A stretch of DNA of 32,000 bases from Candidatus Heimdallarchaeota archaeon (lineage in GTDB: Archaea > Asgardarchaeota > Heimdallarchaeia > JABLTI01): assembly GCA_030614005.1 (NCBI GenBank), contig JAUWKS010000035.1, positions 818 through 32,817 of the forward strand, given 5' to 3'. The position numbers and the translations under genes were made by a program. Below the pieces are notes generated by a model. That model was not told the DNA's origin. It saw only the letters and a program-made list of their open reading frames with translations, and ran no database searches. Positions 7,955-8,886 of the stretch are shown piece by piece. Position 1 is the first letter of the stretch. Each line of letters opens with the position of its first letter.

Positions 7955-8192
7955 CTGGAGTTGGACCAAATATGGGTTCGTAACCTATATACCTGATCAA
8001 TTACTAAATTGATAATTGTCTATCTCAGCACTAGACCTTGCTGGGTTTGTAGCCTTGATAGGTTAAATCCATTACCGAGCGCAAGCTGGTTAATGATGAT
8101 ATAGATTTAGAAAAATAAATGATAATTGTAAACATTTCTTGACTTAAAAAAGTCAAAAAGCGGTGGCTCATAACCGCGCTAACCAACTCCAG
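7955..8192 (+). ncRNA. Unidentified ~240-nt structured RNA (5' leader or co-transcribed ncRNA)
   Basis: CTGGAGTTGG (7955-7964) is the exact reverse complement of CCAACTCCAG (8183-8192). It encloses hairpins at 7970-7990, 7996-8013, 8020-8061, 8064-8109 (GCAA tetraloop), 8117-8137, 8139-8156 and 8160-8177. Confidence 0.7.
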
Positions 8193-8211
8193 CCAATTAT
8201 ACTCAATAGAG

Positions 8212-8886
8212 ATGGTGATAAAATTGAAAAAAACATTAGGAGACGCATTTGCACTTCGTAAAAAAATAGATAATGAACTGAATACCTGGATAAATCGATT
8301 AACATTAGCAAGTAAAAACACAGTACACTATAAGACAAAAGCAATTGAAGGAGATAAGAAATTCCAATCAATACCAGGTACTAAGAAAACTTACACAAGA
8401 AATTATACTATTGAAGAATGCCGAGAAAGAATTCAAAAGCTTATTGCTGAAGATCAAAAACTTGCATTGCAAATTTCCTTAACAAACCAAAAGGCAAAAG
8501 CTACGGTAGTAGACCTAGATGGAAAAGAACAAGAATTAACTATTCCTGAATTACTTGTTCTTCGAAATGAAATTGCTCCAAAAGTTGAACGTGCTGCACG
8601 AGCAATACCAATTAGAGCTTCTGGTGTTGAGATTGTTGAGGATGGAAAAGATAAGATAGAATTCCGAGTAATAAAAACAAACTATGTCAACAAGCAAACA
8701 ATGAGCGAGAAAGGCAATGTGTTAACAAATAAGATCATTGAGGATTTCAATATAGAAGAAGTTATAGACTATGGATTAAAACAAAGAGAAGTCTTTGATT
8801 ATATAGATGAAATTCATTCCTGGATGTTTCGAATCAAAGAAGCAATAAACATGGCAAATAAGACAGAATTAGAAGAATTAAAATAA
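8212..8886 (+). CDS. Helical/coiled-coil protein, DIP1984/septicolysin-like family (tentative)
   Basis: 224 aa. N-terminal LGDAFALRKKIDNEL, central KLALQISLTNQ and LTIPELLVLR, and C-terminal IKEAINMANKTELEEL follow the helical layout recalled for DIP1984-type proteins. Confidence 0.55.
   Translation: MVIKLKKTLGDAFALRKKIDNELNTWINRLTLASKNTVHYKTKAIEGDKKFQSIPGTKKTYTRNYTIEECRERIQKLIAEDQKLALQISLTNQKAKATVVDLDGKEQELTIPELLVLRNEIAPKVERAARAIPIRASGVEIVEDGKDKIEFRVIKTNYVNKQTMSEKGNVLTNKIIEDFNIEEVIDYGLKQREVFDYIDEIHSWMFRIKEAINMANKTELEELK

What the first reader, a model, noticed from the sequence alone, without database searches (positions are those of the whole stretch)
7955..8886. Candidate novel RNA-protein system: ~240-nt multibranch RNA immediately upstream of a DIP1984-like helical protein gene
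Seen: a perfect 10-bp closing helix (7955-7964/8183-8192) encloses about seven stems. These are ATATGGGTT-CGT-AACCTATAT; ATCAATT-ACTA-AATTGAT; CTATC/GATAG with inner TCAGCA/TGCTGG; TAAATC/GATTTA with inner CATTACCGAGC-GCAA-GCTGGTTAATG (GNRA loop); AAATG/CATTT; TTGACTT-AAAA-AAGTCAA; and GCGGT/ACCGC. Several G-U pairs are present, and GC is ~37% by hand count (88/238), above the AT-rich spacers elsewhere. A TATA-like box at 7925-7932 would start transcription at the closing helix, and the ATG follows 19 nt after it. I see no hallmark motifs of tRNA, SRP, RNase P, group I/II introns or common riboswitches. Inference: either a large cis-regulatory leader or a discrete ncRNA that assembles with the adjacent oligomer-prone helical protein as an RNP. 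The retron-like geometry (inverted repeats bracketing hairpins before an ORF) occurs here without any reverse transcriptase in the window.
Basis: partly seen in the sequence, partly recalled or inferred. Interest (0 to 1): 0.85.

Follow-up and report, generated by a model that had tools for sequence, protein, structure and literature searches.

The report
New pseudoknotted RNA paired with protein
The candidate is a real, previously uncatalogued ~200-nt structured RNA that sits next to one small conserved protein gene in nearly every Asgard archaeal and bacterial copy found, which points to an undescribed RNA-protein particle rather than an ordinary leader sequence.

Summary
The 238-nt element (7955-8192, + strand) is real. 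It folds far better than shuffles (z -6.3) and has about 30 archaeal and more than 90 bacterial relatives. Base pairing covaries strongly: 26 of 29 archaeal pairs show compensatory changes, and 0 of 500 shuffles reach the observed score. The first hairpin is not supported.

No Rfam 15 family matches, and I found no paper describing it. The RNA is always linked to one small protein family (about 220 aa, DIP1984-like fold, weak DUF7873 signal). The arrangement differs by lineage:
- Asgard archaea: RNA upstream, same strand.
- Actinomycetota and others: downstream, same strand.
- A Myxococcota clade: downstream, opposite strand.

Genomes carry one RNA per gene, and no other neighbour is conserved. 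The RNA holds G(U/C)A motifs spaced 7 nt apart in regions with no conserved pairing. The protein is modelled as a dimer.

Best reading: a dedicated partner RNA that forms an RNP. Binding and function are not shown. A pure 5' riboswitch-type leader is unlikely. The retron analogy fails.

The parts
7919..7932 (+). Archaeal promoter-like BRE/TATA element (AAAAGG TTAAATAA), about 25 nt upstream of P1
   Evidence: The sequence is conserved in L009 and L010. A TTTAAATA-like box lies at the same distance in the other Asgard copies. Its role as a promoter is inferred, and no transcript data were available.
7955..8192 (+). The structured RNA: 238 nt, from the P1 5' arm to the P1 3' arm
   Evidence: z = -6.34. 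It scores 120 bits against model R1 and is the only copy in its genome. Covariation comes from alignment A4. G-U cells outnumber A-C cells 50 to 15, which supports this strand.
7955..7964 (+). P1 5' arm, CUGGAGUUGG. It pairs with 8183-8192.
   Evidence: All 10 pairs show compensatory changes, and 94.5% of cells are paired.
7965..7970 (+). Junction ACCAAA, part of the conserved A-Y-C-R-A-A-(U/G) motif
   Evidence: Nearly invariant in archaeal alignment A4 and recognisable in bacterial alignment A5 as ACCRAAG or YRAAG.
7971..7977 (+). Pseudoknot 5' strand, UAUGGGU. It pairs with 8166-8172.
   Evidence: All 7 pairs covary and 91% of cells are paired. Examples from other copies: UAAAUGG/CCAUUUA, GUGGAU/AUCCAC, UUAUGAG/CUCAUAA. 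The same pairing is seen in bacteria, for example GAUGGU/ACCAUC, GAGGGU/ACCCUC and GACGGU/ACCGUC.
7980..7983 (+). First conserved GUAA motif (YYGUAA)
   Evidence: Nearly invariant columns in A4 and A5.
8018..8051 (+). Central conserved domain: GUCUAUC (8018-8024), hairpin P4 (CUCAGCA 8024-8030 with UGCUGGG 8039-8045), then GUA (8049-8051)
   Evidence: P4 covaries in archaea (4 of 5 pairs) and in bacteria (5 of 6 pairs). GUCUAYC and the trailing GUA are conserved in both alignments.
8052..8159 (+). Variable arm. It holds the lineage-specific hairpins and the third GUA (8128-8130). G8128 covaries with U8180.
   Evidence: The region aligns poorly outside L009 and L010. Columns 190/250 are canonical in 29 of 29 cells that have letters on both sides, with 5 pair types. 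In bacteria the equivalent arm is an array of G(U/C)A motifs spaced 7 nt apart.
8160..8177 (+). Hairpin P5: GCGGU (8160-8164), loop GGCUCAUA (8165-8172), ACCGC (8173-8177). The loop forms the pseudoknot 3' strand.
   Evidence: 98.7% of cells are paired and 3 of 5 pairs covary.
8183..8192 (+). P1 3' arm, CCAACUCCAG
   Evidence: See the P1 5' arm.
8215..8220 (+). Shine-Dalgarno-like GGUGAU in front of the TTG at 8224
   Evidence: Read from the sequence. GGTG or GAGG lies at the same place in the other Asgard copies. Its function is inferred.
8212..8886 (+). Gene for the partner protein. It is 224 aa from ATG 8212, or more likely 220 aa from TTG 8224. The fold is a DIP1984-like helical bundle with a beta-sheet insertion.
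   Evidence: 154 or more homologues share 45-92% identity. The AF2 model has pLDDT 88. PDB 3kdq matches with Z 11.5. The family is tight, with only about 8 full-length 50%-identity clusters among 1.84 billion representatives.
8915..8927 (+). Two T5 runs (8915-8919 and 8923-8927), a likely archaeal terminator for the RNA-plus-gene transcription unit
   Evidence: Read from the sequence. T-runs are absent between the RNA and the gene in 29 of 30 archaeal copies. The terminator role is inferred.

Best explanation
The element is a discrete, conserved, pseudoknotted non-coding RNA of about 190-240 nt. It is the dedicated partner of the protein encoded next to it, and together they form a two-component RNA-protein module.

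Structure:
- P1 clamps the two ends of the RNA together.
- The segment just after the 5' junction pairs with the P5 loop. This pseudoknot locks a compact core, which also contains the GUCUAYC-P4-GUA domain.
- Two arms between these elements have no conserved pairing. They carry G(U/C)A motifs at 7-nt spacing, many in bacteria and only a few in the AT-rich Asgard copies.

Proposed mechanism: the protein is at least a dimer and has many invariant Arg/Lys/Trp/Asn residues. I propose that several protomers bind the core and the periodic motifs to form a defined RNP.

Expression: in Asgard archaea the RNA is transcribed from its own TATA box and is read through into the gene, so RNA and protein are made from one transcript. 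In bacteria the RNA follows the gene or is transcribed convergently.

What is shown and what is inferred:
- Shown: conservation, covariation, strict linkage, copy number, periodic motifs.
- Inferred: transcription, direct binding, stoichiometry.
- Unknown: cellular function. The patchy, horizontally spread distribution fits an accessory role, such as stress or conflict.
For: - Folding: z = -6.34.
- Archaeal covariation: 90.4% of cells paired against 69.4% in shuffles and 31-49% when partners are slid. 26 of 29 pairs have compensatory changes. The score is 0.599 against 0.218, reached by 0 of 500 shuffles.
- Bacterial covariation for the same architecture: 80.7% against 68.3%, 23 of 30 pairs, 0 of 500.
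- An unbiased mutual-information scan recovers P1, the pseudoknot and P5.
- Cross-detection: archaeal model R1 hits bacterial loci directly after the gene.
- Linkage: R2 hits 95 of 100 bacterial or metagenomic loci. nhmmer finds the RNA beside the gene in 146 of 160 loci: 46 upstream on the same strand, 75 downstream on the same strand, 25 downstream on the opposite strand. Two of the other 14 (L042, L123) are found by the covariance models, 7 are cut by a contig end, and 5 are partial, broken or divergent gene copies.
- The linkage survives about 4 changes of arrangement on the protein tree.
- Copy number: one RNA per genome in the window's genome and in 5 bacterial genomes, always at the gene.
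- In 151 Asgard genomes, strong RNA hits occur only in genomes that carry the gene.
- No other neighbouring gene is conserved.
- Gene and RNA decay together in G158.
- A remote homologue, P0171, still has the RNA.
- Spacing: G(U/C)A motifs 7 nt apart occur 126 times against 5.5 +/- 2.3 expected in bacteria, and 28 times against 4.9 +/- 2.3 in archaea.
- RNAalifold predicts no conserved pairing in the arms.
- Homodimer model: score 0.56 against a best control of 0.00. That mark was reached by 20 of 30 proteins solved as pairs of one chain and by 1 of 23 solved as single chains. The runs agree in at least 94% of contacts and the partner pLDDT is at least 85. My own alignment was used, so these counts hold only roughly.
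Against: - No transcript, pull-down or structure data exist, so binding is inferred from linkage alone.
- The window's own RNA has only isolated GUA motifs, so the periodic-site idea rests mainly on the bacterial copies.
- In all Asgard copies the RNA lies in what is probably the 5' UTR, so a cis role there is not excluded.
- The related sequences are not independent. The shuffle tests therefore overstate significance, although the slid-partner control does not suffer from this.
- The protein has no recognised RNA-binding domain.
Confidence: 0.6

Rival explanations
1. Cis-regulatory 5' leader. This would be a riboswitch, or an autoregulatory site bound by the encoded protein, that controls translation or stability of the downstream mRNA in Asgard archaea.
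For: - In all 29 distinct Asgard loci the RNA lies 21-329 nt (median 43) upstream of the gene on the same strand, behind a TATA box.
- T-runs, which act as archaeal terminators, are absent between the RNA and the gene in 29 of 30 copies despite about 28% GC.
- A P1-closed multi-helix fold with a pseudoknot is typical of aptamer domains. This last point rests on established knowledge, not a test made here.
Against: - The homologous RNA lies downstream of the gene in 75 loci and on the opposite strand in 25. A 5' leader mechanism cannot be the conserved function.
- No SD-sequestering pairing stands out: mean score 9.1 against 8.4 for shuffled controls.
- The RNA is tied to a single gene family, unlike ligand-sensing riboswitches.
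- Autoregulation by the protein would still require RNA-protein binding, so it overlaps with the best explanation.
Confidence: 0.2
2. Type III-like toxin-antitoxin or defence module. The RNA would neutralise a harmful protein, and the pair would spread horizontally as an addiction or anti-phage unit.
For: - It is a two-component RNA-plus-protein unit with no other conserved partner.
- Distribution is patchy: 16 of 399 Asgard genomes, none of the 10 other genomes of the same genus, and 11 of 121 genomes in an actinobacterial family.
- The family is spread across two domains.
- There are decayed copies.
Against: - No PADLOC model matches.
- The RNA is not an array of long tandem repeats (one search reports none in the RNA).
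- The protein has a DIP1984-like fold, not the endoribonuclease fold of ToxN-type toxins.
- The protein is unusually conserved, at about 45-60% identity between domains.
- No flanking mobile-element genes recur.
Confidence: 0.1
3. Not an RNA at all. The region would be a conserved DNA element, such as an operator array or a recombination or replication site, whose inverted repeats act at the DNA level.
For: - The closing inverted repeat and the 7-nt periodic motifs could in principle be protein-binding DNA sites.
- The opposite strand also folds well, z = -4.7.
Against: - Compensatory changes keep the pairing but not the sequence in P1, the pseudoknot, P4 and P5.
- G-U cells exceed A-C cells 50 to 15, which shows strand-specific RNA pairing.
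- A loop-to-single-strand pseudoknot has no DNA-level rationale.
- The region has elevated GC in an AT-rich genome and lowered GC in GC-rich genomes.
Confidence: 0.03
4. Retron-like or other reverse-transcriptase or guide-RNA element.
For: Inverted repeats bracket a structured RNA next to an ORF.
Against: - No reverse transcriptase or nuclease gene lies in the window or recurs at any locus.
- The RNA is single-copy, and no retron or guide-RNA family in Rfam matches.
- The variable parts are periodic motifs, not spacer-like segments.
Confidence: 0.02

Closest known systems
Bacterial Ro60 (Rsr) with Y RNA (YrlA/Yrn1)
   Same: The ncRNA gene is encoded right next to the gene of its protein partner, in variable order and orientation. 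The 5' and 3' ends of the RNA are closed by a long stem. Distribution is patchy. (The Ro/Y RNA properties are from my own knowledge.)
   Different: Ro is a TROVE/vWA ring of about 500 aa, and Y RNAs carry a tRNA-like module. Here the protein is a 220-aa DIP1984-like bundle. The RNA has a P5-loop pseudoknot and 7-nt periodic G(U/C)A arrays. No Y RNA model in Rfam matches.
HutP and TRAP: oligomeric proteins that read triplets at fixed spacing
   Same: A short triplet recurs at a fixed period in regions with no conserved pairing. HutP reads UAG every 7 nt and TRAP reads GAG/UAG every 5-6 nt (own knowledge). This suggests one site per protomer.
   Different: Those sites are short cis-acting leader segments that control termination. 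Here the motifs sit inside a closed, pseudoknotted RNA of about 200 nt that can lie downstream of the gene or on the other strand. The protein folds are unrelated.
Type III toxin-antitoxin systems (ToxIN, CptIN, TenpIN)
   Same: A two-gene RNA-plus-protein module, a pseudoknotted RNA, and horizontal, patchy spread.
   Different: The antitoxin RNAs are tandem repeats of about 36 nt that are cut by an endoribonuclease toxin. Here there are no long tandem repeats, no such fold and no PADLOC hit.
Riboswitch aptamers and ribosomal-protein leaders
   Same: A P1-closed multi-helix junction with a pseudoknot, placed in the Asgard copies between the promoter and the start codon.
   Different: The position is not conserved: it is downstream or antisense in bacteria. 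No expression platform was found. The RNA is linked to one gene family only.
DIP1984 protein (PDB 3kdq, Corynebacterium diphtheriae; function unknown) and Pfam DUF7873
   Same: The helical-bundle fold matches, with Z 11.5 and 149 of 152 residues aligned. Some homologues reach DUF7873 at about 27 bits.
   Different: The window protein has an extra beta-sheet domain of about 70 residues. It has no HMM-level match. Whether DIP1984 itself has an RNA partner was not tested.
Large orphan bacterial ncRNAs (OLE, raiA, ROOL, GOLLD)
   Same: A complex, conserved structure found by comparative genomics, with unknown biochemical function.
   Different: Those RNAs are all in Rfam and none matches. They are not tied one-to-one to a single adjacent protein gene across two domains.

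Membership tests
Any Rfam 15 family | Covariance-model score at or above the family's gathering threshold | tested here: not met
   There are no hits in the window or in 10 bacterial and archaeal loci. E-value mode gives only noise in the window and nothing on L029.
Retron ncRNA (msr-msd) | An adjacent reverse-transcriptase gene | tested here: not met
   Pfam finds no RT among the window ORFs. No neighbour gene is conserved across about 150 loci.
Retron ncRNA (msr-msd) | Flanking inverted repeats (a1/a2) that close the RNA | tested here: met
   P1 at 7955-7964 / 8183-8192. This feature is not specific to retrons.
Riboswitch / cis-regulatory 5' leader | Consistent location in the 5' UTR of the controlled genes across representatives | tested here: not met
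   The RNA is upstream in 46 loci, but downstream in 100 loci, 25 of them on the opposite strand.
Riboswitch / cis-regulatory 5' leader | An expression platform (SD sequestration or a terminator) coupled to the aptamer | tested here: inconclusive
   SD pairing is not above shuffled controls, 9.1 against 8.4. There is no T-run between the RNA and the gene. Other kinds of platform were not excluded.
Riboswitch / cis-regulatory 5' leader | Specific binding of a small-molecule ligand | not testable with these tools
   This needs in-line probing or ITC.
Type III toxin-antitoxin | The RNA antitoxin is made of long tandem direct repeats | tested here: not met
   TRF reports no array within 7955-8192. 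Only a 7-nt periodic triplet motif is present.
Type III toxin-antitoxin | A ToxN/AbiQ-type endoribonuclease toxin | tested here: inconclusive
   There are no PADLOC or Pfam hits. The best fold match is 3kdq, not an endoribonuclease. The absence of a fold match does not prove a different fold.
DIP1984-like / DUF7873 proteins | A profile-HMM match | tested here: not met
   The window protein has no Pfam or NCBIfam hit even at relaxed thresholds (NCBIfam E <= 1, Pfam E <= 10). Bacterial homologues P0077 and P0065 reach PF25283 at 27.2-27.5 bits against a cut-off of 27.
DIP1984-like / DUF7873 proteins | The shared three-dimensional fold | tested here: met
   3kdq_A matches with Z 11.5 and 149 of 152 residues aligned, clearly above the next rows at Z <= 8.8. 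Foldseek gives probability 1.00 with E 7.7e-3.
Ro60-Y RNA RNP | An adjacent TROVE-domain Ro protein, and a Y RNA stem with the conserved bulged helix | tested here: not met
   There is no TROVE domain in the window and no Y RNA match in Rfam. The resemblance lies in genomic logic only.

The most novel reading that the evidence does not exclude
This is a previously undescribed ribonucleoprotein shared by Asgard archaea and several bacterial phyla. A pseudoknot-locked RNA would present arrays of 7-nt-spaced G(U/C)A sites. These would organise multiple copies of a DIP1984-like protein into a defined particle or filament, which would also give the first functional handle on the DIP1984/DUF7873 fold.
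Probability: 0.5. Interest if true: 0.85.

Novelty: categorically new. Interest (0 to 1): 0.82.

Why it matters
Few complex structured RNA classes are shared between archaea and bacteria, and very few are known from Asgard archaea. This one has strong covariation, a clear pseudoknotted architecture and an unusual 7-nt motif periodicity. It is linked to a single protein of unknown function in nearly every locus examined, and that linkage has survived several gene-order changes and transfer between domains. This makes an orphan protein fold (DIP1984-like, DUF7873) directly testable. The partner RNA is known, the module has only two parts, and cultured carriers exist (species of Nocardiopsis, Murinocardiopsis and Streptomonospora). 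Binding, structure and phenotype can therefore be studied with standard methods. If confirmed, it would add a new RNP class and a new Rfam family.

Tried and rejected
- **Rfam.** Gathering and E-value modes on the window and on bacterial loci found nothing.
- **tRNA/tmRNA scan.** None found.
- **Protein family libraries.** Pfam, NCBIfam, PADLOC and PHROGs gave no significant family for the protein.
- **PDB sequence search with the profile.** Only chance-level hits.
- **DNA-level search of the RNA in 60 related genomes.** Only short AT-rich chance matches, so homologues had to be reached through the protein.
- **nhmmer from three sequences.** Too insensitive.
- **Whole-length MAFFT plus RNAalifold on the archaeal set.** It recovered only P1 and the pseudoknot, so helices were defined by inspection and by a mutual-information scan.
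- **Mutual information on the bacterial alignment.** Dominated by clade structure and not used.
- **First descriptor scan in GC-rich DNA.** Many false positives. It was replaced by a junction-anchored scan and then by model R2.
Rejected as a conserved element.
- **SD:anti-SD pairing after P1.** It looked promising by eye but is not above shuffled controls.
- **Orphan RNA hit in G166.** It is a degenerate relic. It was reported by the genome search, is visible by eye, and is not recovered by cmsearch.
- **Divergent homologue P0128 on short contigs.** No RNA was detected. This is unresolved.
- **Literature.** Four full-text searches and one paper query found nothing on this RNA or protein.
- **Remote protein homologues.** None beyond the tight family among 1.84 billion representatives. 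I could not test whether the wider DIP1984 family also has partner RNAs.
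Full report
**What is in the window**

The window comes from an Asgard archaeal genome of 3.6 Mb at about 30% GC. 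At 7955-8192 on the + strand lies a 238-nt stretch closed by a perfect 10-bp helix. Its GC is 37%, against 24% in the neighbouring intergenic DNA. As RNA it folds to -72.6 kcal/mol. Dinucleotide shuffles average -45.4 +/- 4.3, which gives z = -6.34, and none of 200 shuffles does as well. A BRE/TATA-like AAAAGG-TTAAATAA lies at 7919-7932, about 25 nt upstream. An ORF follows at 8212-8886.

Homologues of the encoded protein begin M-x-x-TLGD. The real start is therefore probably TTG 8224, behind a GGTGAT Shine-Dalgarno at 8215-8220. No Rfam 15 family matches, and no tRNA or tmRNA is found.

**The protein**

The protein has no Pfam, NCBIfam, PADLOC or PHROGs match. It does have more than 150 close homologues at 45-92% identity. 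These come from Asgard archaea (Loki-, Heimdall-, Hod- and Sigyn-type MAGs) and also from Nocardiopsidaceae, Streptosporangiaceae, Myxococcota, Planctomycetota and Armatimonadota.

A few bacterial members just reach Pfam DUF7873. The family is small and tight. A profile search of 1.84 billion representatives finds about eight full-length clusters and no distant superfamily.

The AlphaFold model (pLDDT 88) is a four-helix bundle with an inserted beta sheet. Its only outstanding structural match is PDB 3kdq, the uncharacterised Corynebacterium diphtheriae protein, with Z 11.5 and 149 of 152 residues aligned. 'DIP1984-like' is therefore right at the fold level only.

A two-copy model passes the tool's mark with a score of 0.56 against a best control of 0.00. 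That mark was reached by 20 of 30 proteins solved as pairs of one chain and by 1 of 23 solved as single chains. The runs agree in at least 94% of contacts and pLDDT is at least 85. My own alignment was used, so these counts hold only roughly.

**The RNA in archaea**

Every archaeal homologue with enough flank carries a related element upstream on the same strand. Thirty distinct copies, 183-241 nt long, from both low-GC and mid-GC lineages, were aligned as A4. An unbiased mutual-information scan and direct pair counting agree on the following:
- P1: 10 pairs, all with compensatory changes.
- Hairpin P5: in the window, GCGGU/ACCGC at 8160-8164 / 8173-8177.
- Hairpin P4: CUCAGCA/UGCUGGG at 8024-8030 / 8039-8045.
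- A pseudoknot between the segment after the conserved A-Y-C-R-A-A junction (UAUGGGU, 7971-7977) and the P5 loop (GCUCAUA, 8166-8172). All seven of its pairs covary.
- A covarying contact between G8128 and U8180.

Overall, 90.4% of cells are paired, against 69.4% in column shuffles and 31-49% when partners are slid. 26 of 29 pairs show double changes. The covariation score is 0.599 against 0.218, reached by 0 of 500 shuffles. G-U cells outnumber A-C cells 50 to 15, which fixes the strand.

The stems in the middle are shared only with the two closest relatives.

**The RNA in bacteria**

Upstream regions of the bacterial homologues lack the element. However, archaeal model R1 gave weak hits immediately downstream of the bacterial genes. 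The downstream regions turned out to hold a clearly homologous RNA. It has the same P1, the same YRAAG junction, the pseudoknot to the P5 loop, YYGUAA, GUCUAYC-P4-GUA and P5. Covariation is again well above the controls: 80.7% against 68.3%, 23 of 30 pairs, 0 of 500.

Model R2, built from these copies, hits 95 of 100 bacterial or metagenomic loci right next to the gene. Rfam has nothing for these loci either.

**Linkage**

Across 160 loci, nhmmer places the RNA beside the gene in 146:
- 46 upstream, same strand (archaea).
- 75 downstream, same strand.
- 25 downstream, opposite strand (a Myxococcota subclade).

Of the remaining 14 loci, two (L042, L123) are found by the covariance models, seven are cut by a contig end, and five are partial, broken or divergent gene copies.

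On the protein tree the RNA-first arrangement forms one well-supported branch (98/84). The whole pattern needs about four changes of arrangement. The window's genome and five bacterial genomes of 7-11 Mb each hold exactly one RNA, at the gene. Among 151 Asgard genomes, strong hits occur only where the gene is present.

No other neighbouring gene is conserved. In G158, a broken gene sits beside an RNA with a degraded P1. A remote homologue, P0171, still has the RNA. The module is patchy: 16 of 399 Asgard genomes, none of the 10 other genomes of the same genus, and 11 of 121 genomes in an actinobacterial family.

**Periodic motifs and ends**

The arms between the core elements carry G(U/C)A motifs at a 7-nt spacing. 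This spacing occurs 126 times against 5.5 +/- 2.3 expected in 31 bacterial RNAs, and 28 times against 4.9 +/- 2.3 in 30 archaeal RNAs. RNAalifold predicts no conserved pairing in the arms.

In 12 of 31 bacterial copies P1 is followed by a U-tract, which suggests a defined 3' end. In archaea T-runs are avoided between the RNA and the gene in 29 of 30 copies, which suggests read-through into the gene. T5 runs follow the gene at 8915-8927.

**Interpretation**

A conserved RNA keeps its place beside one gene through changes of order and strand, and through transfer between domains. It is present once per gene and decays together with the gene. This is best explained as that protein's partner RNA, that is, an RNP.

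The pseudoknotted core and the periodic motifs in arms with no conserved pairing suggest multivalent binding by an oligomeric protein. This step is inferred.

A riboswitch-type leader cannot be the conserved function, and I found no SD-sequestering platform. A cis or autoregulatory role in Asgard archaea remains possible and would be compatible with the RNP reading. A type III toxin-antitoxin or defence role fits the patchy spread, but none of the defining features tested was met. The retron analogy fails because no reverse transcriptase is present. A DNA-level element is contradicted by the strand-specific, structure-preserving covariation.

**Novelty and limits**

There is no Rfam match, and full-text searches, including a 2026 survey of prokaryotic non-coding space, found no description. 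I therefore rate it as a new RNA class and a new RNA-protein pair.

Four limits apply:
- No expression or binding data exist.
- The aligned sequences are related, so the shuffle tests overstate significance.
- The middle of the archaeal alignment is unreliable.
- The function is unknown.

Noticed in passing
window 13931-15724(-), 20410-31609: A dense cluster of signalling genes: a PAS/GAF protein, two response regulators, a PAS-HisKA-HATPase kinase of 1011 aa, a REC-PAS-GAF protein and a further multi-PAS protein.
   Followed up: no
window 9032-10348, 16385-18565, 18693-20009: Several TPR-repeat genes, including two of exactly 438 aa. The one directly downstream of the RNA-protein module is not conserved at other loci.
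   Followed up: partly
window 7100-7555: An RHH_8 (CdrS-like ribbon-helix-helix) gene lies between the RNA and the block of CN_hydrolase, TetR, ArsR and a 253-aa ORF. The close relative L009 has the same block but lacks this gene.
   Followed up: no
window 8031-8321(-) and 8168-8371(-): The mechanical ORFs of 96 and 67 aa on the opposite strand overlap the RNA and the start of the gene. They are most likely spurious.
   Followed up: no
L063 / L085 / L086 / L163 (genome G158): This copy of the protein gene is broken (1 TGA and 4 TAA in frame). The P1 helix of its RNA is degraded as well, so the two parts appear to decay together.
   Followed up: partly
L172 1501-1698 (minus strand; genome G166, contig C123): A degenerate RNA-like relic with a recognisable junction, pseudoknot strand and P4 region, but with no partner gene downstream. 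It abuts a convergent membrane-protein ORF.
   Followed up: partly
L123 2163-2351 and L042 3228-3426: Two low-GC lineages have the gene-first arrangement. L123 is the long-branched sister of the archaeal RNA-first clade. A tRNA-like 3' end lies upstream of its gene.
   Followed up: partly
L176 1501-2202 and 2532-2741: The remote homologue P0171 (233 aa, E 1.7e-7 to the profile) still has a 66.7-bit RNA hit about 330 nt downstream. A 297-aa gene called on the opposite strand over that RNA is probably a false call.
   Followed up: partly
L030, L040, L132, L026, L053, L057, L116, L142 (variable arm): GC-rich hairpins are inserted at different places between the 7-nt repeats of the bacterial RNAs. 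It looks as if the array tolerates stem insertions between units.
   Followed up: no
L024 4778-4984: At one deltaproteobacterial locus the RNA lies 1.6 kb downstream of the gene rather than about 20 nt. This suggests an insertion between the two parts.
   Followed up: no
genomes G453 and G505 (actinobacterial family of G399): These genomes hold partial or internally deleted copies of the protein gene. This points to ongoing loss within a family where only 11 of 121 genomes carry the gene.
   Followed up: no
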